NCBI GenBank assembly: GCA_013151275.1
Contig: JAADIP010000158.1
Span: forward strand, 1,622-65,621
Direction: 5' to 3'
Length of the DNA stretch: 64,000 nucleotides
Origin: Calditrichota bacterium
GTDB taxonomy: Bacteria; Calditrichota; Calditrichia; Calditrichales; Calditrichaceae
The notes beneath the pieces are model-generated. The model saw only the letters and a list, made by a program, of their open reading frames with translations. It searched no databases and was not told where the DNA came from. Shown piece by piece: positions 8,065 to 21,757 of the stretch; positions within the stretch are counted from its first letter, which is position 1; every line of letters begins with the position of its first letter. The position numbers and the translations under genes were made by a program.

Positions 8065-9258
8065 TCAATCATTAAATTTGATTTCGTGATAATCCATGAA
8101 CTTTTTTGCTTCGCTAAAAACATAAGGCAGAATTCGTTTAATCTCTTTTTGGATTTCGTCAAAGGTGACTTCAAAAAATTCCATGCCGTGACTAATCGGA
8201 TCCGCAATCGAAGGATTGGCTAATCTGGATCGGCGGTGCCACTCGCGTAAAAGAACGATTTTATCTTTAAATTGAGGATATTCTTCTCTGAGCGATTCGT
8301 AATGATTTACCGCCAGACAAATAATGAGATCGCTTTCCCGCATAATTTTATCGTCAACCGATCGGGCTTGATGGTGCGACAGATCGATGCCGTGCTTCTG
8401 AGCCACTTCAACCGCAAACGGATGCGCCGCGCCCGAAGCCATGGCAAGCGTACCCGCGGAGCTTACCTTGACGATGTCTTTAAAACGTGTTTTTGAGATG
8501 ATTTCTTCCAGAATTCCCATAGCCATCGGCGAGCGACAGATGTTTCCCGAGCAGATAAAAGTGACCTGAAAATATCTTTTGCGCGTTTTGAACGGAACAT
8601 CCGGCAGCCGCTTTTTAAGCTCGTCCAGAGCAACCGCTCCTTCGCGCAGAACAAGATAGGGTTTTTTGGTAAAATCGATAATCGTGGAGCCGCGGATATC
8701 CGGAACGGGTCCCGCGTCCAAAATCAGGTCGAGACGATCTCCGAACTGGGCGACAACCTCCTGAACATTCCGCGCGTTGGGATTTCCGGTGAGGTTTGCG
8801 CTGGTTGAAGTAACCGGGCTGCCGAGCGAAAGAACAAGCTGTTTGCACACCGGCAATTCCGCTACCCGGAAACCGACCTTTGCCTTTCCGCCGGCTTTTG
8901 TGAATCCGGAAGAAAGGTAGGTTAAGTTTTCTTTAAAACGGCTTTCCACAAGAACCGTAAATTTTCCGGGAAGTAATTTCCGGAAATGTTCGTATTGTTC
9001 TTTGGAAACAACTCCGAACAAATTCGTCAACTGTTCCAGCGAGGCTACCATTAAAGAAACGGGCATAAAAGGACCGCGTTGTTTAATCACAAACAACCGA
9101 TCCAGCGCCTTTTTATTGAAAACATCCACGCCCAGTCCGTAGAGGGTGTTTGTGGGATAGACAATAATCCCGCCCTGTTTAAGAACCTGAACGGCTCGTT
9201 TTATCGCCTTACGGCTCGGCTTATGGGGATCGATTTTATAATATTCCATTTTTCCCAA
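8065..9258 (-). CDS. Fusion: L-threonylcarbamoyladenylate synthase (TsaC/YrdC) + low-molecular-weight protein phosphatase
   Basis: N-half YPTNTLYGLG and STSANLTG (YrdC family); C-half FICSGNICRSPMA (CX5RS P-loop) and IADP general-acid motif; one continuous ORF. Confidence 0.9.
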   Translation of the reverse strand: MGKMEYYKIDPHKPSRKAIKRAVQVLKQGGIIVYPTNTLYGLGVDVFNKKALDRLFVIKQRGPFMPVSLMVASLEQLTNLFGVVSKEQYEHFRKLLPGKFTVLVESRFKENLTYLSSGFTKAGGKAKVGFRVAELPVCKQLVLSLGSPVTSTSANLTGNPNARNVQEVVAQFGDRLDLILDAGPVPDIRGSTIIDFTKKPYLVLREGAVALDELKKRLPDVPFKTRKRYFQVTFICSGNICRSPMAMGILEEIISKTRFKDIVKVSSAGTLAMASGAAHPFAVEVAQKHGIDLSHHQARSVDDKIMRESDLIICLAVNHYESLREEYPQFKDKIVLLREWHRRSRLANPSIADPISHGMEFFEVTFDEIQKEIKRILPYVFSEAKKFMDYHEIKFND

Positions 9259-10514: not shown

Positions 10515-10951
10515 ACGTCCTCGTCACTTGTTAATTTGCAACTATACTTCTCCGGATTATGGTTTAGCGTTTAACGTCAACAGGGTTCGTTTTTCGGCAG
10601 TAACCGATTAAAAACGGGAATTGACGCCCGTCACGGCAATCGCCGGGATACTTTTGGATATTTAAAAAGCTAAAGTTCTTCCGGACAATATCGATTAATT
10701 AATAAGTGTTGTTTAATTTATGAAGGAGACTTTGCAGCGCAAATTAAACTACCGTTTAATATTAGTTATTATCTTTTTAACTTTCGACTACTGATAATAA
10801 TAATACAAAGCGTTTATTTTGTGGCTCTTTTCTGGCTTTCGCTTTTTCTTAGAACGATACCCGGCAATCTGCGTTATTCTCAAAATTAATCCTTTAATAC
10901 GATTTTAAATTAAAATTGCATTTTATCAACCAAATAGGGGGAACGGTTACC

Positions 10952-13900
10952 ATGCGTCATTTTTTTTCTATTATCGTTATTTTTTTAACGGTTGGTTTTG
11001 CTTTTTCCCAAACCAACGTTTCCGGTACAATTGATACGGACAGCACCTGGGATGTCTCGGGAAGTCCATATATTGTCACCGGAACACTTACAATAAAATC
11101 GGGCGTTACCCTGACCGTGGAATCGGGAGTTGAGGTAAAGTTCAACTCGGGGGTTTATTTTTACGTTTACGGAAAATTGAACGCCAAGAGCGCCATTTTT
11201 ACATCAAACCAGGGATCTCCTCAACCCGGCGATTGGAATTACATACAAATTGGTTCATCGTCGTACGCGGGTGAAGCCAATTTCGAGAACAGCACTATTG
11301 AGTACGGCGGAACGGGATATACTAATTCAAACTACGGCATGATTCATGTTTACAACGGCACCGCAAATTTCACCGATTCCGATCTTTCAAATTCCAAGAA
11401 TTACGCCCTCTGGATTTATACGAACGGCAATGTGCAATTAACGAACACCAATATTTTCGGCTGCCGTTGGCCTATCGGATATAACGGAGCCGGTTCTCTT
11501 ATTTTCAACGGCACTAATAACCTGTCGGGAAACACACATGACGGGATTATTCTGCAATTTTACACTCAATACCGAACAATGGTTCTCGACACTATCAGCA
11601 TCCCCTACGTATTTAGTTATAATTTTACCATCAAATCCGGCTACACGATGACAATTGCTTCCGGTAATATCGTAAAGCTTAATAACGGAGTGAATATTTA
11701 CGTGGAAGGTGCGCTGATCGCAGAAGCCGGAGTCGGAGAAAAGATTATTTTTACCTCTTACAAAGACGACAACGCCGGCGGAGACACCAACGCCGACGGT
11801 ACGGCGACTTCACCCGCTTCCAAAAATTGGGGCGCGGTCCGTTTTCAGGACAGCAGCGATGACGCGGCGTGCGTATTGACAAGAGCCGAATTCAGATACG
11901 GCGGAGCCGGGAACATAGGGGCGGTTTCAACTTATGACGCCAGTCCCACCATAACGGAATGCGAATTCAACAACAATTATTACGGCGCCATGTTTAAGGG
12001 CGTTTCCAATCCCGTTTTTTCCGATAATACAATCGGCTCAAGCGATATGGTGCCTATTGCCATGTCTTTCGACGCCAATCCCGTATTCACAAATAACAGC
12101 TTTTCTTTTTCCGACAACGCTTATGACGCCATAGGCTTGCTCGGCGGAACCTTAGGCGCCGACGCGGATCTGCCTATCCGCAACGTAACCGGCATACCCA
12201 ACATTACTTACCTGTTGTTAGGCGATCTGACCGTTCCCGAAACGCTTACTTTGACCATTCACAAGGGGGTGGTCATTAAAGGCTATTCTAACTACCAAAA
12301 GATTAAAGTTCAGGGTAAATTACTCGCCGTAGGCGCCGTGGACAGCATGATCACCTTTACATCCGCAAAAGACGATAATCACGGCAATCCGAAAGACACC
12401 AACAAGGACGGCACCCAAACCACTCCGCAAATCGGAGATTGGGGGGGCATTGTTTTTGAAAGCACCAGCGATACCTCTTCTACCCTTGACTATTGCCGCA
12501 TTAAATACGCCCGAATGCCCGGAACCTACTACAGCGGTCAATATTACCAAAACGGAGCAGTGACAACCGTTAATGCCTCGCCGCGTATTAAAAACTCCGA
12601 AATCAAAGACGTCTATTACGGAATTATGGCTATTTTCTCTTCCAAACCGATCATTCAGAATAATTCGTTTATCAATACAAGTTATACGCCTATCGCCCTT
12701 TCTGTTTCGGCTGATCCGGTTTTTTCGGGAAATACGTTCACAAACACGCACTGGACAGCTTTGGGCATATTGGGCGAAAGCGTGGGAGCAAACGGCACCA
12801 TTAAACAACGAACCGTTGCCGGTTACAATAACATTACTTACATGCTCCTGGGAAACTTGACCGTCAATTCCGGCACGTATGTTACCGTTGATCCGGGCGT
12901 GGTCATTAAATTTAATTCCGGTGTTAATATTTATGTGGAAGGCGGATTTAAAGCCCTTGGGAATGTCGCCCAGGGAGATATTATTTTCACTTCTTTCAAG
13001 GACGACAATTACGGCAATCCCAACGATACAAACGGAGACGGTTCCGGCACGTCACCGGCTGCGGGCAACTGGGGTACAATTCAATTCAAAAGCACAAGCG
13101 ACGACGCTTTTTGCCATCTGGATAAAACACAAATCTTATTCGGCGGCTCAGCCAATAAAGGATTGATAACTTTTACGGACGCCAACAGCAGCGTGAGCAA
13201 TTCACTTCTTTCCAATTCGTACTCTTACGGATTGCGTTGCGAAGGGACATCCGAACCTTCCATTGATAATGTGGAAATTAAGAATTCGCGGCTCGATCCT
13301 ATCGCCATGTCTTTAAAATCGGATCCGGTTTTTAACGACATCACCTTCACCGGAAACGGAAGCAAGGGAATCCGGATTCTCGAAGGAACCCTTTCTTCCG
13401 ACGCCACATTAAATCAACGAAGTCTGGCGGGAATAAAGAATATCGCTTACATCGTCGAAAACCTGACGATCAGCTCCAATGCCACGCTTACAATTCAGCC
13501 CGGAGTTGTTATTAAAATCCTTAATTACTACAACAAAATTACGGTTCAGGGCGCGCTGGTCGCTAATGGCACGGTAGATCAAAAAATTATTTTTACATCC
13601 ATTAAAGACGATTCTTACGGAGGAGACACAAATACCGACGGAAACTCTTCCATTCCGCAAATGGGCGACTGGTGGAGCATCGAATTCACCGGTTCGAGCA
13701 ACAGCGCTTTAAATTCGCTGCAGTATTGCATTTTCCGTTACGGCGGAAGCGCTTACAGCAATAATAATTATAAACAATACGGCGTAATTCGTGTTTACGA
13801 CACCGCCGTAAACATTAAAAATTCTACGATTGAACTCTCAAATAGCAGCGCCGTCGGCGTTTTCGGAAGCGCAAATCCCACCATCCAGAATTGTGAAATG

Positions 13901-16240
13901 CTGAATATTAAATACACGCCCATTGTAATGAGTCTGTTTGCAAATCCGACGTTTATCAATAACTCCGCGTTAAACTCGGGCATTATGGCTTTAGGCGTGG
14001 TTCCGGAAAATTATTCGGTGAGCGCAACGGTGCCCATCCGCGATTTCGCGGGATATTCAAACATTACCTATCTCATGTATTCGCAATCAACCATTAATTC
14101 GGGCACCACCATTACCTTCCCGGCGGGATTGGTGTTCAAATTCAAATACAGCGGATTCAAGGTTGACGGCGCCGTGAAGGTCGCCGGCACAACCGCAGAA
14201 CCGGTTGTTTTTACGCATGAAGCCGACGATGATTACGGCAATCCCAAAGACACAAACGACAACGGCTCGGCTACCGTCCCGACAATAAACGCAAGTTATT
14301 ATCATTTTGATTTTTCCGATATCAGCGACGACGCCCTCTCGTCAATCAATCATGCAATTTTCCGTTTCCGAGTCGCCGGAATTAATCTGAATCAGGCTTC
14401 TCCCACCATCCGGAATTGTCTTTTTGATAATAATAACTGGGGAATAATTTTACGCGGAGTATCGGAACCCGTGGTTGAAAACAATACGTTTAACGATCTC
14501 AAGTACGCGCCGCTAATCATCTCTCTTGTTTCCTATCCGAGTTCGGCAAGCGGAAACATCATCTCGGGAACTTCTTATCGCGCAATCGGCGTGCTGCAGG
14601 AAGAATTGGTTCAGGACATTACGCTGCCAAAACGAAATTTCGGCGGCATTGACAATATTCCCTATTACTTTTCGGGCAATTACACCATCGGAACCAGCTC
14701 TATTCTTACTTTGGAACCGGGACTGGTTTTAAAATTTGCAAGCTACAAACGGCTTACTGTAAAAAAAGGTCTCATTGCAGAAGGCGGAGCAGCCGCGGAC
14801 AGCAACATTGTTTTTACTTCCATTTATGACGATTTTTACGGCGGCGATACCAACGCCGACAGTAACGCCACTTCTCCCGCCTGGAATACTAACGGATGGG
14901 ACGGGATTGTCTTCGAAGACGTCTCTTTGGACCCCTATTGCCGTTTGGATCACACGATCATCCAATACGCCGGTCGCTCGGGCAATTACGGAGCAATCGT
15001 CACAAAAAATGCCAGTCCTACCATCACCAATTCCCTTTTAACCAAAAACAGAACCGGTCTTATTGCCAACGGCGCTTCCAACCCGGTTATTAATTATTCG
15101 GATCTGTATGATAATTACGACTACGGAGTGAATAACGTAAATAAGTCGTTTGTTATCGACGCCCGCTGGAACTGGTGGGGAGACGATACGGGTCCGACCC
15201 ACGCAAGCAACCCCGGCGGAAAGGGACAGTCCGTAACCGACGCCGTGAATTTCGATCCTTACACAACTTCGGGCGCCGCTAATCCGGTGGCGGGCGACGT
15301 TAGTCTGAACGGTAAAATCCAAGCCTACGACGCTTCGTTGATTTTACAATTTGTGGTGGGAAGTATTTCCCTTAACCAGTTGCAGCAAAAGGTGGCGGAC
15401 GTCAGCGCCAACAATTCGGTAACATCCTACGACGCTTCGCTGATTCTGCAATACATCGTAAAATTAATTTCGGATTTTCCTTTGGAATTGCTTAAAGAAG
15501 GCGGCGGCGATAACAATCAAAGCCCGCTTGTCTTAAATCCGGTTTCGATGCGCAAAACCACGAGCACCGGACTGCGCGTCGCCTCGGTTGACGCCCAAAA
15601 CGGCGAAACAGTCTCAATTCCCTTAGACCTGATTTCCGCATCACCGCTCAATTCGTGGCAGGCGGTTCTCTCTTACGATCCGGCGCAGATGCAAATCCAA
15701 GGCGTGGAATCCGGCGAACTCGCCTCTCAAATGAGCTTTGCCTACCGGATAGACGCTCAGGAAGGAAAAATCTATCTTGCCATGGCTGGCGGTCAGGCTC
15801 TTGAAAAAAGCGGAACCGTCGCCTTGCTGAAGGTTAAAACCAATGATGATTTGAAGGGCAAACAAAGTACTGTTATCGGCGTTGAACAATTTTTGGTCGA
15901 TGAAATCGATAATACCGATCTCTCCGAAAACGGCGCGCTGACAATACAGGGACTGCCCGAACAATTTACTCTTGAGCAGAACTATCCGAATCCTTTCAAT
16001 CCCGTTACCACAATTAAATACCGGCTTCCCGAAGCCCAAAACATGGTTCGCCTGCAAATTTACAATATCCTCGGGCAATTGGTAAACACATTGGTCGAAA
16101 GACCTCAGGAAGCGGGATATTACGAACTTAAATGGAAAGGCACCGATCGATTCGGCAGAACAGTTCCCAGCGGACTTTATATTTACAAGTTAAAAACCGA
16201 CAAGTACGTAAAAATAAAAAGAATGCAGTTAATTCGATGA
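10952..16240 (+). CDS. Large secreted protein: repeated right-handed beta-helix modules + dockerin + cohesin + T9SS-type C-terminal sorting (FlgD-Ig-like) domain
   Basis: Signal peptide after ATG 10952 (GGGGGA RBS); six repeats with FTSxxDDxxGxxDTNxDG loops; ARWNWWG..GP cap; duplicated GDVSLNG..AYDASLILQ / ADVSANN..SYDASLILQ dockerin; cohesin-like segment; NYPNPFNP...GLYIYKL C-terminus. Confidence 0.82.
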   Translation: MRHFFSIIVIFLTVGFAFSQTNVSGTIDTDSTWDVSGSPYIVTGTLTIKSGVTLTVESGVEVKFNSGVYFYVYGKLNAKSAIFTSNQGSPQPGDWNYIQIGSSSYAGEANFENSTIEYGGTGYTNSNYGMIHVYNGTANFTDSDLSNSKNYALWIYTNGNVQLTNTNIFGCRWPIGYNGAGSLIFNGTNNLSGNTHDGIILQFYTQYRTMVLDTISIPYVFSYNFTIKSGYTMTIASGNIVKLNNGVNIYVEGALIAEAGVGEKIIFTSYKDDNAGGDTNADGTATSPASKNWGAVRFQDSSDDAACVLTRAEFRYGGAGNIGAVSTYDASPTITECEFNNNYYGAMFKGVSNPVFSDNTIGSSDMVPIAMSFDANPVFTNNSFSFSDNAYDAIGLLGGTLGADADLPIRNVTGIPNITYLLLGDLTVPETLTLTIHKGVVIKGYSNYQKIKVQGKLLAVGAVDSMITFTSAKDDNHGNPKDTNKDGTQTTPQIGDWGGIVFESTSDTSSTLDYCRIKYARMPGTYYSGQYYQNGAVTTVNASPRIKNSEIKDVYYGIMAIFSSKPIIQNNSFINTSYTPIALSVSADPVFSGNTFTNTHWTALGILGESVGANGTIKQRTVAGYNNITYMLLGNLTVNSGTYVTVDPGVVIKFNSGVNIYVEGGFKALGNVAQGDIIFTSFKDDNYGNPNDTNGDGSGTSPAAGNWGTIQFKSTSDDAFCHLDKTQILFGGSANKGLITFTDANSSVSNSLLSNSYSYGLRCEGTSEPSIDNVEIKNSRLDPIAMSLKSDPVFNDITFTGNGSKGIRILEGTLSSDATLNQRSLAGIKNIAYIVENLTISSNATLTIQPGVVIKILNYYNKITVQGALVANGTVDQKIIFTSIKDDSYGGDTNTDGNSSIPQMGDWWSIEFTGSSNSALNSLQYCIFRYGGSAYSNNNYKQYGVIRVYDTAVNIKNSTIELSNSSAVGVFGSANPTIQNCEMLNIKYTPIVMSLFANPTFINNSALNSGIMALGVVPENYSVSATVPIRDFAGYSNITYLMYSQSTINSGTTITFPAGLVFKFKYSGFKVDGAVKVAGTTAEPVVFTHEADDDYGNPKDTNDNGSATVPTINASYYHFDFSDISDDALSSINHAIFRFRVAGINLNQASPTIRNCLFDNNNWGIILRGVSEPVVENNTFNDLKYAPLIISLVSYPSSASGNIISGTSYRAIGVLQEELVQDITLPKRNFGGIDNIPYYFSGNYTIGTSSILTLEPGLVLKFASYKRLTVKKGLIAEGGAAADSNIVFTSIYDDFYGGDTNADSNATSPAWNTNGWDGIVFEDVSLDPYCRLDHTIIQYAGRSGNYGAIVTKNASPTITNSLLTKNRTGLIANGASNPVINYSDLYDNYDYGVNNVNKSFVIDARWNWWGDDTGPTHASNPGGKGQSVTDAVNFDPYTTSGAANPVAGDVSLNGKIQAYDASLILQFVVGSISLNQLQQKVADVSANNSVTSYDASLILQYIVKLISDFPLELLKEGGGDNNQSPLVLNPVSMRKTTSTGLRVASVDAQNGETVSIPLDLISASPLNSWQAVLSYDPAQMQIQGVESGELASQMSFAYRIDAQEGKIYLAMAGGQALEKSGTVALLKVKTNDDLKGKQSTVIGVEQFLVDEIDNTDLSENGALTIQGLPEQFTLEQNYPNPFNPVTTIKYRLPEAQNMVRLQIYNILGQLVNTLVERPQEAGYYELKWKGTDRFGRTVPSGLYIYKLKTDKYVKIKRMQLIR

Positions 16241-16288
16241 ATCTGAAATTGTGATAAAGTCATGCTGATATAAAAAAGGATAAGAACC

Positions 16289-18595
16289 ATGAAATTACAT
16301 AAAACATGGATTTTAATTTTAACTCTTTTGTTAGAATTAACAGCCGCTCAGGCGGCGAAAATCCGACTATCCATTCCGGATTCTTCGGGCGTTATGGGTA
16401 CAACGATTTCAATTCCGGTTCGCGTCGAAGATGATTTAACCGGGCAGGATGTCTTTTCGTACCAACTGCAAATATCTTACAACCAGAACATCCTGTTGCT
16501 GGATAATGTGATCATCAATAACACATTGACCAACCAGTGGGGATACATGGAATTCAACGTACCCGCGAACAATCAGGTGTTGATTTCCGCAGCGGGAGAC
16601 GTTCCCTTAACGGGAAAAGGCATTCTTGTTTTTCTGAAATTCGAAATTATCAGAGTCGGGGGAGTCAACATCTCTTTTTCCGACACATTGCACACTTTTT
16701 TTAATCAGGGAAAGCCTTCTCTCGAATTTAAGGCGGGCTATTTTAACGCCGTTTCCCCGCCAAAAATCACGGTATCTCCGAACAGCGGCGTTTTGATTCC
16801 CGGCGAACAAAAACAATTTTACGTGAGCGGCGGGCAGTCGCCTTATCAATGGTCAACCTCCGACCCCGCGATCGCCACCATTGACGCTAACGGATTATTG
16901 ACCGGCGTTTCACCGGGCAACATTCGCGTTTACGCCCAAGATTCCGAAGGAATAATCGACAGTACGGATCAATGGGTCGAAATTCGTCCGTTCCGGATAT
17001 TTCTTAAGGACAGCTCCATTTATCAGGGACAGACTCTTAAACTACCGGTTTATGTAAGCGATTTGACGGATGCGGAAGTTACTTCGGGAAATTTCAAAAT
17101 AACTTTTTATCAGAAGGCTTTTAAAGCGGTAGATGTCACCACAAAAGGCACGCTTCTGGAAGATGCGGATTCCCGTTCTTTTAACGCTTACGCCGGCGCT
17201 CTGGAATTCGCCTTTGCTTCCGCAGCGCCCTTAAGCGGTTCAGGAATACTTTGCTATATCGAACTGGAAAGCGCGGCGACCTACTCCGGCGGCGTCACCA
17301 TCGGTTTTGCCGAAGTTATATTTAACGAAGACATTCAACCGGCGACCGCTTCGGGCTACTTTTCCGTTTTGAAACCCGCGGCAATCACGATTTCTCCGGT
17401 GAACGCTCAGTTGTTCACGGGACAAACCAGGCAGTTTACAGCCAGCGGAGGAACGCCTCCTTACCAGTGGTCTGTTTCTTCACCGCAAACCGCCCAAATT
17501 GACGCCGACGGATTACTGACCGCTTTGCACAGCGGCGAAGTCCGCGTTCTGGTGACCGATGCCGTCGGAGCGAAGGGACAGACAAATCCCATAAAAATAT
17601 ATGACTGTCAGGTGGTTTTTCCGGACACTTCGGGCATGCAAGCCTCTTATTTTGAATATGTCATTCATTTACGTCAATTTTCCGTCATAGAACCGGTTTA
17701 TTCGTTTCAGCTTTCGGTAACAATCGATACCCTCGCCTTAAAATTTAAAGATATCAGAACCTCGGGCACTTTGGCAAATAGCTGGAGCGTCTCTTCCAAT
17801 TTGGACCGTAAAAATCTGATCATCGCCGCCGCGGGAACCGACCCGATTACCGGCAACGGAGATTTACTGCGCATTCGTTTTTACATTACAAACCGCGTAA
17901 GTATCGGTCACTACGCCAATTTGACCCTGCAAAGCTTTTCGTTTAACGAAGGCTACCCGCTGCCGTTGACCGATAACGGCTTTGTTAAAGTGGTCGAGCC
18001 GACCGAACCGCCCGCTTCCGCGCCTCAGCTCATTTCTCCGGCGGACGGGCAAACAGGCGTTTCGAACTCGCCGACCTTTTACTGGCACAGCGTGTTGTAC
18101 GCACAAAACTACCAATTGCAGGTTTCCAAAAACGCCGATCTTTCGGCGGCTGTTTTCGACCTGAACACAATTATCGACACCAGCTTCACGGTCAGCGGTC
18201 TCGATGCAAACACAACATATTACTGGAGGGTAAAAGCGTTAAATGCAGCCGGCAACAGCGCCTGGTCCGAAGTGTGGAGTTTTTCGACCCTGAGTACGGG
18301 ACTTGATGAGCCCGGAAGCGCCGACGCGCCCACGGAATATCGTCTTGATCAGAACTACCCTAACCCCTTCAATTCCGGCACGGTTATTACATTTTCGCTG
18401 CCGGAGCCGACTCATGTTCAACTTTTGATTTATGACGTTACGGGTAAACTGATTTTTACTTTGCTTGAAAGGCGGCTTTCTTCCGGCGCTTACAATATTC
18501 ATTTTGACGGCGCCAATCTGCCGAGCGGTATCTATTTTTACCGCTTACGGACTCCCGGCTTCGAGCAGGTTAAGCGAATGTTTTTAATCAAGTAA
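16289..18595 (+). CDS. Secreted scaffoldin-like protein: cohesin-Big_2-cohesin-Big_2-cohesin-Fn3-T9SS-type CTD
   Basis: Signal peptide; three segments ending AAGDVPLTGKGILVFLKF / ASAAPLSGSGILCYIEL / AAAGTDPITGNGDLLRIRF (cohesin pattern); two ITxSP...F..SGG..PYQWS...A.IDA.GLLT Ig (Big_2) units; TTYYWRVKA Fn3; NYPNPFN CTD. Confidence 0.78.
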   Translation: MKLHKTWILILTLLLELTAAQAAKIRLSIPDSSGVMGTTISIPVRVEDDLTGQDVFSYQLQISYNQNILLLDNVIINNTLTNQWGYMEFNVPANNQVLISAAGDVPLTGKGILVFLKFEIIRVGGVNISFSDTLHTFFNQGKPSLEFKAGYFNAVSPPKITVSPNSGVLIPGEQKQFYVSGGQSPYQWSTSDPAIATIDANGLLTGVSPGNIRVYAQDSEGIIDSTDQWVEIRPFRIFLKDSSIYQGQTLKLPVYVSDLTDAEVTSGNFKITFYQKAFKAVDVTTKGTLLEDADSRSFNAYAGALEFAFASAAPLSGSGILCYIELESAATYSGGVTIGFAEVIFNEDIQPATASGYFSVLKPAAITISPVNAQLFTGQTRQFTASGGTPPYQWSVSSPQTAQIDADGLLTALHSGEVRVLVTDAVGAKGQTNPIKIYDCQVVFPDTSGMQASYFEYVIHLRQFSVIEPVYSFQLSVTIDTLALKFKDIRTSGTLANSWSVSSNLDRKNLIIAAAGTDPITGNGDLLRIRFYITNRVSIGHYANLTLQSFSFNEGYPLPLTDNGFVKVVEPTEPPASAPQLISPADGQTGVSNSPTFYWHSVLYAQNYQLQVSKNADLSAAVFDLNTIIDTSFTVSGLDANTTYYWRVKALNAAGNSAWSEVWSFSTLSTGLDEPGSADAPTEYRLDQNYPNPFNSGTVITFSLPEPTHVQLLIYDVTGKLIFTLLERRLSSGAYNIHFDGANLPSGIYFYRLRTPGFEQVKRMFLIK

Positions 18596-18655: not shown

Positions 18656-21600
18656 ATGAGATCTACTCATCTGTATGTAACTGTTTTAATCTTTTTAATT
18701 TTCACGAATCTCTTGTTTTCGCAGGCGGAATCCACATTAGCCGGAGGTCCGTGGACTTCGCCCTCAACCTGGAAAGACGGAGTTGTGCCCAACGCTTCGG
18801 ATTTTATTGTCATTAAGGGTCCCGTGACTCTTGACGTAATTACCAACGCCGGAGATCTTCGAATTGAAGCCGGAGGATCGCTTAAACCCGAAGTAATTAC
18901 TTCTGCCACCACCTATCATTTATATGTTACCAAAGACGTCACCAATTACGGCACTTTGGACGGCTACAATCTGGATTTGCATGTGGGAGGCAACCTGTAC
19001 AATAACGGCACCTGGACAACGGGTTACATCATGCTCGAAGACACATCGTCTCATTACATTACGGCTTACCCGGGTTCAAAATTCTCGCCCTCGGAAATCA
19101 AGGCGGACAGCGCGACTCTCCGCTCATCGGGCAACGTTTATCTGGACAGCGTTAAGGTATGGGTCAAGAATTTTTACCTGGGGAATAACGATCCGGTCTT
19201 TCCATCCGACACCCTTTATCTGACCCATCATTCCGTTTTAAGGGTTGACAATTTTTACGGCAACGGGAATACTATTTATTTGCAGAACGTATCCTATTTG
19301 TATTCCGCGGTTACCGGCGGAACAACTCCGTTATTCAAGGACGTCCGCCTGAAAGGTGACGTGGAGATAGGCGCCAATCTGAACTTTAGCGGCGACATTT
19401 TTAACGACGGAATCATGTTCCCGCGTTTTTACAATTTTAATCCTACTTTAAAAATCAACGGCAATTTCACGAACAACGGAGAGATAAAAGCAAACGAGTG
19501 GGGAGATAAACCGTACTTTGAAATCAGCGGCAATCTGACAAATAACGGAACATGGGATTCGCATCAGATTAAATTAACGGGACATTTGCAACACCTGCTT
19601 ATTACCGACGGGAGCAAAACTTTTTCTCCCGAATATTTCATATCCGACAGCTCCGCCGTTATTTCCGGATCGGATATTCGGTTTGACGACTCCAGGGTTC
19701 AGGTAAGAAAATTCACCCTCCAAAGCGGAAATAACCTTTACTTAAACACCGGTTCCTACCTGAAAACGGACGAATTCACCGGCAACGGTAATTTTATCCA
19801 ATTGTTAGATAATTCGTATTTGCATTCGGCTTTTTCCTCGGGTAAAAGCCCGGTTTACAACAATGTTTCTCTTAAAGGACAGGTGGCTATCGGAGCAAAC
19901 GTGATTTTTACGGGCAATATTTTCCTGCAGGGTAGCATGTTCTCCCGCTTTTACAACTCCAGCCCAACCGTTACGATTAACGGAAATTTTGTGAACAACG
20001 GCGAAATCAAGGAAAATTCCTCGGCGGACAAGCTGTTTTTTAATATCGCCGGAAATATTACCAACAACGGCGACTGGAGCTCAAATCAACTAAAACTGAC
20101 GGGAGACACGCAATATCTTACCACCGACACCAGCAAAACATTCTCGCCTTACTATTTTACCACCGACAGCGCCACGGTAATCTCGAATTCCGATATCCGC
20201 TTTGACGCCTGCAAAGTTCAGGTAAAAAAATTCATTCTCCAGAACAAAAACAACCTCTACTTAAATTCCGGCGCAAAACTTCAAACGGACGAGTTCATCG
20301 GTAACGGCAACTTTATCCGCTTATCGGGCAATTCATATCTTTTTTCCGGTTTTTCTTCCGGAACAACCGGAAACTACCAAAACATCACCCTTAAGGGTCA
20401 GGTCGGTATCGGCGCAAACGTGAATTTTACGGGCGATATTTATCTGCAGGGAACCATGTACTCACAATTTTACAATTCCAGCCCCACCGTTACAATTGAC
20501 GGAAATTTTGTAAACAACGGCGAAATCAAGGAAAATAGCTCGGCGGACAAGCTGTTTTTTAATATCAGCGGAAATATTACCAACAACGGCAACTGGAGCT
20601 CAAATCAACTTAAACTGACGGGAGACACGCAATATCTTACCACCGACACCAGTAAAATTTTCTCGCCCTACTATTTTACCACCGACAGCGCCACGGTAAT
20701 CTCGAATTCCGATATCCGCTTTGACGCCTGCAAAGTTCAGGTAAAAAAATTCATCCTCCAGAACAAAAACAACCTCTACTTAAATTCCGGCGCAAAACTT
20801 CAAACGGACGAATTTTCCGGCAACAACAATTTTATTCTGCTGTCCGGTAATTCCTATCTTTTCTCCGCTTTTACCTCAGGCGGCACCCCCAATTACAGCG
20901 ACGTTAAACTTAAAGGCGACGTGGGAATCGGATCGACGATGAACTTTTCGGGCGATGTCTTTTTAGAAGGAACAATGTATCCTCAGTTTTACAACTCAAG
21001 TCCCACAATAGTAATTTTCGGCACATTTCAGAACAGCGGCGAAATAAAAGCGAATACGTCCGGAGACAAATTGTCCCTCGACATCAAAGACAATTTCGAA
21101 AACGCCGGTAAATGCGAAGTTTATCAACTGTCTTTTTCGGGTATGGATGATCAGCATTTCAGCATTAAAGATTCGTCCTCTTCGGTTAAAAATGTCCGGT
21201 TTTCAGCGATGCGCTCCGGGAATACTTACCAATGGTTAAAAGACGGGGCTCCTCTCGTCAGCAGCGGAAATGTCAGCGGCGTCACCAGTTACACGCTGAA
21301 ATTCAAGTCGGTTACTCCAAATGATTTCGGCGTTTACAAATGCAAAATCGACTCCAACGGCACAATCCTTTATTCGAGAGAAATTACCGTAAATAACGTT
21401 ATTACCGCTATCGACGACGCCCAGGCAAAAGGCGGAAACAAGGGCAGAGGCGGAGACTCCCAATATCCCGAAAAATTCGCGCTCTATCAGAACTATCCCA
21501 ATCCGTTCAATCCGACAACTACCCTGAAGATCGACCTTCCCGAAAGAGCGCACGTGATTCTGCGTATTTACGACTATTCCGGTCGAATGGTCAAAGAATT

Positions 21601-21757
21601 GGCGAACGGCTGGCTTATGCCCGGAACGCATCTGATTAAATTCGACGGAAACAAACTTGCCAGCGGCGCTTATTTTTACCGGATTCAAGCCAAACCAGTG
21701 TCCTCGGAAGCCGGCGCGGTTTACACGGAAACGAAAAAGATGATTCTGCTTAAATAA
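18656..21757 (+). CDS. Secreted protein with ~173-aa tandem repeats, Ig domain and T9SS-type CTD
   Basis: AGGAGG RBS, signal peptide, GPWTSPSTWKDGVVP N-terminal motif, about 4 repeats (NGNFxNNGEIK...ISGNITNNGxW), YQWLKDG...DFGVYKC Ig domain, NYPNPFNP CTD. Confidence 0.78.
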   Translation: MRSTHLYVTVLIFLIFTNLLFSQAESTLAGGPWTSPSTWKDGVVPNASDFIVIKGPVTLDVITNAGDLRIEAGGSLKPEVITSATTYHLYVTKDVTNYGTLDGYNLDLHVGGNLYNNGTWTTGYIMLEDTSSHYITAYPGSKFSPSEIKADSATLRSSGNVYLDSVKVWVKNFYLGNNDPVFPSDTLYLTHHSVLRVDNFYGNGNTIYLQNVSYLYSAVTGGTTPLFKDVRLKGDVEIGANLNFSGDIFNDGIMFPRFYNFNPTLKINGNFTNNGEIKANEWGDKPYFEISGNLTNNGTWDSHQIKLTGHLQHLLITDGSKTFSPEYFISDSSAVISGSDIRFDDSRVQVRKFTLQSGNNLYLNTGSYLKTDEFTGNGNFIQLLDNSYLHSAFSSGKSPVYNNVSLKGQVAIGANVIFTGNIFLQGSMFSRFYNSSPTVTINGNFVNNGEIKENSSADKLFFNIAGNITNNGDWSSNQLKLTGDTQYLTTDTSKTFSPYYFTTDSATVISNSDIRFDACKVQVKKFILQNKNNLYLNSGAKLQTDEFIGNGNFIRLSGNSYLFSGFSSGTTGNYQNITLKGQVGIGANVNFTGDIYLQGTMYSQFYNSSPTVTIDGNFVNNGEIKENSSADKLFFNISGNITNNGNWSSNQLKLTGDTQYLTTDTSKIFSPYYFTTDSATVISNSDIRFDACKVQVKKFILQNKNNLYLNSGAKLQTDEFSGNNNFILLSGNSYLFSAFTSGGTPNYSDVKLKGDVGIGSTMNFSGDVFLEGTMYPQFYNSSPTIVIFGTFQNSGEIKANTSGDKLSLDIKDNFENAGKCEVYQLSFSGMDDQHFSIKDSSSSVKNVRFSAMRSGNTYQWLKDGAPLVSSGNVSGVTSYTLKFKSVTPNDFGVYKCKIDSNGTILYSREITVNNVITAIDDAQAKGGNKGRGGDSQYPEKFALYQNYPNPFNPTTTLKIDLPERAHVILRIYDYSGRMVKELANGWLMPGTHLIKFDGNKLASGAYFYRIQAKPVSSEAGAVYTETKKMILLK
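19961..20860 (+). repeat. Near-identical in-frame direct repeat, period 519 nt (copies about 19961-20341 and 20480-20860)
   Basis: GGGAGACACG at 20101 and 20620; one stretch of about 85 nt is identical between the copies. Confidence 0.93.

What the first reader, a model, noticed from the sequence alone, without database searches (positions are those of the whole stretch)
15293..15950. Dockerin and cohesin in the same polypeptide: possible head-to-tail polymer
Seen: a duplicated dockerin-type motif (DVSLNGKIQAYDASLILQ / DVSANNSVTSYDASLILQ, also visible as a DNA repeat near 15326 and 15428) is followed by a short linker and a cohesin-like domain. Inference: each molecule could dock onto the cohesin of the next, forming chains nucleated by the neighbouring tri-cohesin protein, or the dockerin is masked in cis until CTD processing.
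Basis: inference. Interest (0 to 1): 0.62.

Follow-up and report, generated by a model that had tools for sequence, protein, structure and literature searches.

The report
Closed cohesin-dockerin surface-protein cassette
A giant secreted surface protein of an uncultured Calditrichota bacterium carries the genome's only dockerin "plug" next to a cohesin "socket". The next gene supplies three more sockets, so the two proteins probably snap together on the cell surface, but who binds whom is untested.

Summary
Gene A (10952-16240, 1762 aa) ends in a type-I-like dockerin, a 32-aa linker, a cohesin and a T9SS type-A sorting domain. Gene B, 48 nt downstream, has three cohesins.

What I added:
- The 100%-complete genome has exactly one dockerin and four cohesins, all in A and B. 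About 121 T9SS cargo ORFs exist, but only A has a dockerin. It is a closed set of partners, not a cellulosome that recruits enzymes.
- A followed by B is a conserved cassette. I found 410 loci in species genomes from several FCB phyla. Of 76 loci with downstream DNA, 70 have a B with exactly three cohesins.
- The dockerin is the most conserved part of A, and both of its repeats are kept alike. A's own cohesin is the least conserved part. B's cohesins are better conserved.
- AlphaFold2 predicts a compact dockerin-cohesin unit (pTM 0.85-0.86) in two orthologues, with 27- and 9-residue linkers.

I could not resolve cis capping, head-to-tail chains or binding to B. The idea of self-recognising cohesin-dockerin proteins has precedent (R. 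bromii Amy4, A. fulgidus). Earlier notes of this scan describe similar T9SS cohesin-dockerin cassettes on other DNA. I class it as a new variant of a known kind, of moderate interest.

The parts
10952..16240 (+). Gene A: 1762-aa T9SS cargo protein. An upstream TTG at 10916 would give 1774 aa; residue numbers in this report use that 1774-aa frame.
   Evidence: ORF. The database record of the same protein is 1762 aa, which corresponds to the ATG at 10952 (P0005). Pfam and NCBIfam domains.
10952..11011 (+). Sec signal peptide (MRHFFSIIVIFLTVGFAFSQ)
   Evidence: Read directly from the translation. No predictor was run.
11012..15235 (+). Passenger: repeated right-handed beta-helix modules with acidic DDxxGGDTNxDG loops
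   Evidence: Pfam Beta_helix, 2.5e-40, seven stretches, plus NosD. Mean majority-residue fraction 0.65 across 99 full-length homologues.
15290..15475 (+). Type-I-like dockerin with two F-hand repeats. Ca-loop 1 is at 15296-15331 and Ca-loop 2 at 15398-15433.
   Evidence: Pfam PF00404: 29.0 to 36.4 bits against a cut-off of 22.9. Family model 109 bits. Residue table for both repeats. Best sequence match among solved structures is 4uyq_B, the ScaB dockerin, E 2.9e-5.
15324..15350 (+). DNA direct repeat, copy 1 (encodes YDASLILQ of dockerin repeat 1)
15426..15452 (+). DNA direct repeat, copy 2 (89% identical, 102 nt downstream)
15476..15571 (+). Linker between dockerin and cohesin; poorly conserved
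   Evidence: pLDDT below 50 for model residues 81-94. Conservation 0.38. Linker length in the family is 9-27 aa.
15572..15955 (+). Cohesin A (type-I cohesin fold)
   Evidence: Pfam PF00963: 44.9 to 51.6 bits against 24.1. AlphaFold2 pLDDT above 90. Foldseek 4dh2_A E 3e-13, with 2xdh also among the hits. By sequence, 2xdh_A E 1.1e-5.
15983..16237 (+). T9SS type-A C-terminal sorting domain of A
   Evidence: TIGR04183, 34.7 bits against 23. Genome-wide scan.
16289..18595 (+). Gene B: 768-aa protein with signal peptide, Coh-Big_2-Coh-Big_2-Coh-Fn3-CTD, and no catalytic domain
   Evidence: Pfam and NCBIfam. Conserved directly downstream of A in other genomes.
16364..16687 (+). Cohesin B1
   Evidence: C27:17985-18308, 30.8 bits..
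17009..17287 (+). Cohesin B2
   Evidence: C27:18630-18908, 28.4 bits..
17651..17953 (+). Cohesin B3
   Evidence: C27:19272-19574, 21.1 bits alone, 51.2 with its neighbours. 45 bits with the family model.
18356..18580 (+). T9SS type-A C-terminal sorting domain of B
   Evidence: TIGR04183, 41.8 bits..

Best explanation
Genes A and B form a self-contained plug-and-socket kit for building a protein assembly on the outer surface of a Gram-negative FCB bacterium.

Both proteins are exported by the Sec pathway and the type IX secretion system. Each carries a type-A CTD, which in studied T9SS cargo is cleaved and replaced by a lipopolysaccharide anchor (inferred here).

A is a beta-helix protein of about 190 kDa. 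The tail just before its CTD holds one Ca-binding, symmetric type-I-like dockerin and one cohesin. B is a non-catalytic stalk with three cohesins.

The genome has no other dockerin. The dockerin of A can therefore only engage cohesins of this cassette. I think it most likely plugs into the better-conserved cohesins of B, giving up to three A per B. A's own cohesin would then offer one more socket, either occupied in cis or used to add a further A head to tail.

The product would be a membrane-proximal, cross-linked cluster or short chain of beta-helix rods, not an enzyme-recruiting cellulosome.

Shown: the domains, the closed one-to-four census, the conserved A-B synteny, the conservation pattern, the presence of T9SS, and a predicted compact dockerin-cohesin unit. 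Inferred: any binding, its partner, the stoichiometry, and what the beta-helix passenger does.
For: - Domains score over the curated cut-offs.
- The 100%-complete genome holds exactly one dockerin and four cohesins, all in A and B. Pfam models and family-specific models on six-frame translations agree.
- PorU (816 bits), SprA and 121 CTD-bearing ORFs are present, yet only A has a dockerin.
- Of 80 related loci, 76 have DNA downstream of A, and all 76 carry a cohesin gene there. Seventy have exactly three cohesins, one has four, one is split 1+2, and four are cut by a contig end. Four further contigs with unrelated flanks show the same gene order; cohesins are on record for B in three of them.
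- 410 loci were confirmed among species genomes from Calditrichota, Bacteroidota, Ignavibacteriota, Kryptoniota, Cloacimonadota, Fidelibacterota and Balneolota.
- The dockerin is the most conserved segment of A (0.75; 48% of columns at 0.9 or more). It keeps the same residues at positions 1, 3, 9-14, 17 and 18 in both repeats, the pattern of a working dual-mode dockerin.
- B's cohesins are more conserved than A's. Mean pairwise identity is 0.41, 0.40 and 0.34 against 0.30. Columns at 0.9 or more number 18, 11 and 11 against 4.
- AlphaFold2 gives a compact dockerin-cohesin didomain, pTM 0.86 and 0.85, in two orthologues.
- Five other genomes with the cassette have only 1-3 dockerins each. All lie in A-type proteins, in other proteins that also carry cohesins, or within about 2 kb of a cohesin gene, apart from one 557-aa frame in G064.
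Against: - No binding has been measured.
- The structure tool gives no coordinates. I do not know whether the predicted dockerin-cohesin packing uses the canonical 8-3-6-5 face.
- A single-chain model cannot tell cis from trans.
- Sockets outnumber plugs four to one per gene copy. Either many cohesins stay empty, or A is made in excess, or the cohesins have other ligands.
- Both proteins carry their own anchor signal, so tethering alone does not explain the need for a dockerin.
- Covariation between the dockerin and each of the four cohesins did not single out a partner.
- Seven of eight other genomes of the same genus lack the cassette, including a complete one-contig genome. It is dispensable.
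Confidence: 0.55

Rival explanations
1. Head-to-tail polymer. The dockerin of one A molecule binds the cohesin of the next. This gives linear chains that start on the three cohesins of B. Short linkers would disfavour cis pairing, as in diabodies.
For: - A has one plug and one socket per chain.
- AlphaFold2 finds the dockerin and A's own cohesin compatible.
- Many orthologues have linkers of only 9-11 residues.
- Both dockerin repeats are conserved alike.
- There is precedent in Amy4 of R. bromii, whose cohesin binds its own dockerin (PMC4611034).
Against: - A's cohesin is the least conserved part of the protein while the dockerin is nearly invariant.
- AlphaFold2 still gives a compact monomer with a 9-residue linker, and all five models agree.
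- I have no data on oligomeric state.
Confidence: 0.2
2. Cis-locked didomain. The dockerin is permanently packed on its own cohesin as a rigid Ca-stabilised stalk before the CTD. B's cohesins then bind something else, or nothing.
For: - pTM is 0.85-0.86 in two orthologues.
- With the 9-residue linker, all five models agree and the linker has pLDDT of about 70-80.
- Dockerin and cohesin A co-occur in every orthologue seen.
Against: - It leaves unexplained why a tri-cohesin gene always follows.
- It leaves unexplained why both symmetric binding faces of the dockerin are conserved.
- A cis-bound cohesin would be expected to be as conserved as its dockerin, and it is not.
Confidence: 0.15
3. No cohesin-dockerin binding at all. 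The modules are only structural spacers, a Ca-binding helical module and beta-sandwiches, of the kind often found before T9SS CTDs.
For: - Non-cellulosomal cohesin-like and dockerin-like modules with no shown binding are widespread. This is established knowledge; the survey by Peer et al. 2009 was not held in the library.
- Sockets outnumber plugs.
Against: - The only dockerin and the only cohesins of the genome lie together, and this holds across phyla.
- The canonical recognition positions of the dockerin are nearly invariant.
Confidence: 0.1

Closest known systems
Ruminococcus bromii Amy4 (amylosome)
   Same: One polypeptide carries both a cohesin and a dockerin. Its cohesin binds its own dockerin, which was read as a route to multimers. 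The same dockerin also binds a cell-surface scaffoldin, Sca2 (PMC4611034).
   Different: Amy4 is a GH13 enzyme in a Gram-positive bacterium with 26 dockerin proteins and sortase anchoring. Here there is no recognisable catalytic domain, a single dockerin in the genome, a Gram-negative host and T9SS CTD anchoring.
Archaeoglobus fulgidus non-cellulosomal cohesin-dockerin protein (cohesin structure 2XDH)
   Same: It is non-cellulosomal. PMC4611034 cites this system among cohesin-dockerin pairs that presumably multimerise; that one protein carries both modules is my own recollection. 2xdh_A is the best sequence match among solved structures for cohesin A, E 1.1e-5, and it is also a Foldseek hit.
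   Different: It is archaeal, with no T9SS and no conserved tri-cohesin partner gene. Sequence identity is low, about 19% by Foldseek.
Adaptor scaffoldins of cellulosomes (for example Acetivibrio cellulolyticus ScaB, R. flavefaciens ScaA/ScaC)
   Same: Cohesin(s) and a dockerin sit in one chain and link one layer of an assembly to the next. The best solved match for this dockerin is the ScaB dockerin 4uyq_B, E 2.9e-5.
   Different: Adaptors bridge many dockerin-bearing enzymes to anchoring scaffoldins. Here no enzymes carry dockerins.
Putative T9SS-anchored cellulosome-like complex of Ca. Stygibacter, Cloacimonadota (PMC8542988)
   Same: It is an FCB bacterium with a scaffoldin-like multi-cohesin protein that carries a T9SS CTD.
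   Different: There, several enzymes (GH18, GH57, peptidases) carry dockerins, and the scaffoldin has CBMs and many cohesins. Here the system is closed, with one dockerin on a beta-helix protein and no CBM.

Membership tests
Dockerin type I (Pfam PF00404) | Score over the curated gathering cut-off | tested here: met
   29.0 bits in the whole protein, 31.7 in the tail alone and 36.4 in the genome scan, against 22.9.
Dockerin type I (Pfam PF00404) | Two tandem segments of about 22 residues, each a 12-residue Ca-binding loop (acidic or polar residues at positions 1, 3, 5, 9, 12) followed by a helix | tested here: met
   Repeat 1: D1 100%, S3 100%, N5 97%, Q9 92%, D12 100%. Repeat 2: D1 96%, S3 97%, T9 77%, D12 100%. 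Counted over 171 unique family sequences. Departures from the textbook motif: Ser instead of Asn/Asp at position 3, and position 5 of repeat 2 is variable. The AlphaFold2 model has the expected helices.
Dockerin type I (Pfam PF00404) | Ca2+-dependent folding and binding to a cognate cohesin | not testable with these tools
   Needs biochemistry. AlphaFold2 only shows a confident packing against cohesin A.
Cohesin (Pfam PF00963) | Score over the curated cut-off, and a nine-stranded beta-sandwich fold like solved cohesins | tested here: met
   44.9 to 51.6 bits against 24.1. Foldseek places type-I cohesins at the top: 4dh2_A E 3e-13, 3ul4_A target-normalised TM 0.79, and also 1ohz_A and 2xdh.
Cellulosome (enzyme-recruiting cohesin-dockerin system) | Several dockerin-bearing enzymes that dock onto a multi-cohesin scaffoldin | tested here: not met
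   There is one dockerin in the whole genome, on a protein with no recognised catalytic domain. None of the other T9SS cargo ORFs, about 120, has one.
Cellulosome (enzyme-recruiting cohesin-dockerin system) | Scaffoldin with a carbohydrate-binding module and SLH or sortase anchoring | tested here: not met
   B has Big_2, fn3 and a T9SS CTD, but no CBM, SLH or sortase signal in Pfam or NCBIfam.
T9SS type-A cargo | C-terminal TIGR04183 domain over its cut-off, plus T9SS machinery in the genome | tested here: met
   A scores 34.7 bits and B 41.8 bits, against 23. PorU scores 816 bits against 420, and SprA is over its cut-off.
T9SS type-A cargo | CTD cleavage and attachment to anionic LPS on the cell surface | not testable with these tools
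   Inferred from studied T9SS cargo. Some type-A cargo is released instead of anchored.
Self-recognising cohesin-dockerin proteins (Amy4-like) | Cohesin and dockerin in one polypeptide | tested here: met
   Every orthologue seen has both.
Self-recognising cohesin-dockerin proteins (Amy4-like) | The protein's own cohesin binds its own dockerin | tested here: inconclusive
   AlphaFold2 gives pTM 0.86 and 0.85 for the didomain of two orthologues. No coordinates are returned, there is no trans model, and covariation is uninformative.

The most novel reading that the evidence does not exclude
The A-B cassette builds a defined supramolecular surface structure found across the FCB group. B would be a three-armed root. 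Chains of beta-helix rods would grow from it by head-to-tail, domain-swapped cohesin-dockerin links. This would be a non-enzymatic surface polymer or lattice, assembled outside the outer membrane by cellulosome-type modules and anchored through the T9SS.
Probability: 0.18. Interest if true: 0.75.

Novelty: new variant of a known kind. Interest (0 to 1): 0.5.

Why it matters
Cohesin-dockerin pairs are known mainly as the glue of Gram-positive cellulosomes. Their many non-cellulosomal occurrences have almost no assigned function.

This cassette is a minimal natural case: one plug, four sockets, no enzymes. It is conserved across several FCB phyla and tied to the type IX secretion system. That makes a clean binding matrix of one dockerin against four cohesins directly testable.

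If binding is confirmed, it would show how Gram-negative bacteria use these modules to organise large surface proteins. It could also supply a new orthogonal cohesin-dockerin pair for protein engineering.

If the dockerin binds nothing, it would be a useful negative example for annotation pipelines that call such loci "cellulosome-like".

Tried and rejected
- **Covariation.** I computed APC-corrected mutual information between variable dockerin columns and the columns of cohesins A, B1, B2 and B3 over 69 paired loci. Top scores were alike for all four (0.25-0.35). The dockerin varies too little and the set is too small, so this did not discriminate.
- **Contacts from the models.** The structure tool returns only pLDDT, pTM and secondary structure, and no model file reaches the Python box. 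The interface could not be inspected. Foldseek works chain by chain and matched only the cohesin part, query-normalised TM about 0.5.
- **Stop-codon read-through fusion.** A and B lie in the same frame. I considered a Doc-CohA-CTD-B fusion to let AlphaFold2 choose between cohesins. I dropped it because the answer could not be read without coordinates.
- **Hidden dockerins.** Six-frame search with Pfam and family models down to E=10 found no further dockerin or cohesin.
- **Promoter and terminator scan.** Counts did not differ from shuffles, and no terminator lies between A and B. This is weak support for co-transcription only.
- **Horizontal transfer.** GC content is only slightly raised, 0.46-0.48 against about 0.43. 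In the tree the Calditrichota pair sits on a long branch among Cloacimonadota, Fidelibacterota and Bacteroidales. The origin stays unresolved.
- **Cellulosome reading.** Rejected: no dockerin-bearing enzymes and no CBM.
- **Literature.** No paper in the held library describes this family. Peer et al. 2009 was not held.
Full report
**Observation.** The window has a 1774-aa ORF at 10916-16240. The likely start is the ATG at 10952, which gives 1762 aa and matches the length of the database record.

Its tail reads GDVSLNGKIQAYDASLILQ ... ADVSANNSVTSYDASLILQ, then a linker, then a beta-rich domain, then QNYPNPFNP. Pfam places Dockerin_1 at aa 1459-1514 (29.0 bits against a cut-off of 22.9) and Cohesin at aa 1553-1666 (44.9 against 24.1). 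NCBIfam places a T9SS type-A sorting domain at aa 1690-1769.

It is the internal duplication of the dockerin.

The next gene (16289-18595, 768 aa) is Coh-Big_2-Coh-Big_2-Coh-Fn3-CTD.

**Fold.** I ran AlphaFold2 on aa 1450-1686 with 27 family sequences. It gave mean pLDDT 89.2, three dockerin helices and a nine-strand sandwich. Foldseek ranks type-I cohesins first: 4dh2_A E 3e-13, 3ul4_A with target-normalised TM 0.79, and also 1ohz_A and the A. fulgidus cohesin 2xdh. By sequence, the best solved relatives are 2xdh_A for the cohesin and the ScaB dockerin 4uyq_B for the dockerin.

**A closed system.** The window lies in a 4.46-Mb assembly rated 100% complete. Its nearest public relative is a Calditrichota MAG, 93% identical over the didomain.

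The Pfam models find exactly one dockerin and four cohesins in the whole genome, all in these two genes. Models built from the family's own dockerin and cohesin, searched with all filters off against every six-frame ORF, find the same five domains and nothing else down to E=10.

The genome has PorU (816 bits), SprA and 121 ORFs with a type-A CTD. T9SS export is therefore heavily used, but only this one cargo has a dockerin. That excludes a cellulosome-like enzyme-recruiting role. The dockerin's possible cohesin partners are its own cohesin and the neighbour's three.

**A conserved cassette.**
- A search with the tail found more than 2000 proteins, most of 1750-1900 aa, with the same beta-helix, dockerin, cohesin and CTD layout.
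- A scan of one genome per prokaryote species confirmed 410 loci. Submitter labels cover Calditrichota, Kryptoniota, Bacteroidota (Bacteroidales, Chitinophagaceae, Lentimicrobiaceae, Paludibacter), Ignavibacteriota, Cloacimonadota, Neomarinimicrobiota and Balneolaceae.
- Of the 80 loci fetched, 76 have DNA downstream of gene A, and all 76 carry a cohesin gene there. In 70 it has exactly three cohesins. In one it has four, in one it is split 1+2, and in four it is cut by the contig end.
- Cloacimonadota insert a small one-cohesin CTD gene between A and B. Some other lineages add one after B.
- The flanking genes differ from locus to locus. The third gene in this window (18656-21757) is not part of the conserved unit.
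- Five other genomes with the cassette hold only 1-3 dockerins each. All but one lie in a protein that also has cohesins or within about 2 kb of a cohesin gene; the exception is a 557-aa frame in G064.
- Among close relatives the cassette is patchy. Two of nine genomes of the genus have it. A complete one-contig congener lacks it.

**Conservation pattern.** Across 99 full-length homologues the dockerin is the most conserved segment. Its mean majority-residue fraction is 0.75, and 48% of its columns are at 0.9 or more. The linker (0.38) and cohesin A (0.42, with 4% of columns at 0.9 or more) are the least conserved. The beta-helix passenger scores 0.65.

Over 171 unique sequences both dockerin repeats keep D1, S3, Q/T9, A10, Y/F11, D12, A13, S14, L17 and K/Q18. 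Positions 10, 11, 17 and 18 are the recognition positions in type-I dockerins (established knowledge). Their symmetry is the signature of dual-mode binding.

Across 69 loci the B cohesins are more conserved than cohesin A. Mean pairwise identity is 0.41, 0.40 and 0.34 against 0.30. Columns at 0.9 or more number 18, 11 and 11 against 4. The B cohesins share motifs of their own (PDTS, GTL, FNEGxP). Cohesin A has YDP and FLANExDxT. A near-invariant plug argues for a conserved socket, and the B cohesins fit that better than cohesin A.

**Cis or trans.** The didomain model has pTM 0.86 although 14 linker residues are below pLDDT 50. By my arithmetic the cohesin alone could give only about 0.55. The dockerin is therefore placed with confidence relative to the cohesin.

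As a check I modelled the orthologue with the shortest linker, a Paludibacter MAG with 9 residues (the family range is 9-27), using 77 sequences. It gave pTM 0.85, and all five models reached pLDDT 86-88. A compact dockerin-cohesin unit is thus a family-wide prediction.

This shows compatibility of the dockerin with its own cohesin. A single-chain prediction cannot separate intramolecular capping from head-to-tail pairing. The tool returns no coordinates, so I cannot say whether the canonical face is used. Covariation did not help.

**Most likely mechanism.** A and B are exported and, by analogy with studied type-A cargo, fixed to the outer membrane.
- The dockerin of A then engages cohesins of the cassette. 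I put 0.55 on some such assembly.
- Within that, binding to B (up to three A per B) is the leading option, on the conservation evidence. A's own cohesin would act as an extra socket.
- A pure head-to-tail polymer gets 0.2, a cis-locked rigid stalk 0.15, and no binding at all 0.1.
- Because both proteins carry their own anchor signal, the likely purpose is lateral clustering or cross-linking of the beta-helix rods rather than mere tethering. This last point is inference.

**Comparison with known systems.** A cohesin and a dockerin in one chain with self-recognition is documented for Amy4 of R. bromii. There it was read as a route to multimers, and A. fulgidus was cited as another case (PMC4611034). 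Adaptor scaffoldins also combine the two modules. A T9SS-anchored scaffoldin with dockerin-bearing enzymes was inferred for a Cloacimonadota genus (PMC8542988).

What differs here is the closed one-to-four set of partners, the absence of any enzyme or CBM, the fixed tri-cohesin partner gene, and the spread across FCB phyla. I found no paper on this family in the held library.

Earlier notes of this scan describe related T9SS cohesin-dockerin and beta-helix cassettes on other DNA, so the theme recurs within the scan. I did not test those notes.

**Verdict.** This is a new variant of a known kind, of moderate interest.

Noticed in passing
window 18656-21757 (+): The third co-oriented T9SS cargo gene encodes 1033 aa: long internal repeats, an Ig domain and a CTD, with no Pfam family for the repeats. 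It is not conserved next to the A-B pair in other genomes.
   Followed up: partly
G061:C55:6685-9165 (genome of locus L016): A single 1609-aa frame alternates cohesin-dockerin-cohesin-cohesin-dockerin-cohesin by Pfam. It is a more extreme plug-and-socket protein in another genome that carries the cassette.
   Followed up: no
L003:76-2397 (G027, same order as the window's genome): A 773-aa protein has a dockerin, two Pfam cohesin stretches and a T9SS CTD, but no beta-helix passenger. G048, G052 and G054 have similar 600-800-aa frames. The dockerin-cohesin-CTD tail therefore occurs on other passengers.
   Followed up: partly
window 16238-16291: Genes A and B are in the same reading frame. Sixteen codons lie between the stop of A and the start of B, and two of them are also stops (one TGA and one TAA), so three stops in all separate the two reading frames. 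No terminator-like hairpin lies between the genes.
   Followed up: no
window 10916-15235 (gene A passenger): The beta-helix region is unusually well conserved across phyla for a surface protein (majority-residue fraction 0.65). It carries six acidic DDxxGGDTNxDG loops. Its function is unknown and no solved structure matches it by sequence.
   Followed up: partly
window 8065-9258 (-): One 397-aa ORF joins a YrdC/TsaC-like N-terminal half to a C-terminal half with a CSGNICRS low-molecular-weight phosphatase motif. I saw this in the translation only.
   Followed up: no
L020:2-3346: In a Neomarinimicrobiota MAG the orthologue of A is split by a stop or frameshift exactly between the dockerin and the cohesin. 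This may be a pseudogene, an assembly error or a natural split.
   Followed up: no
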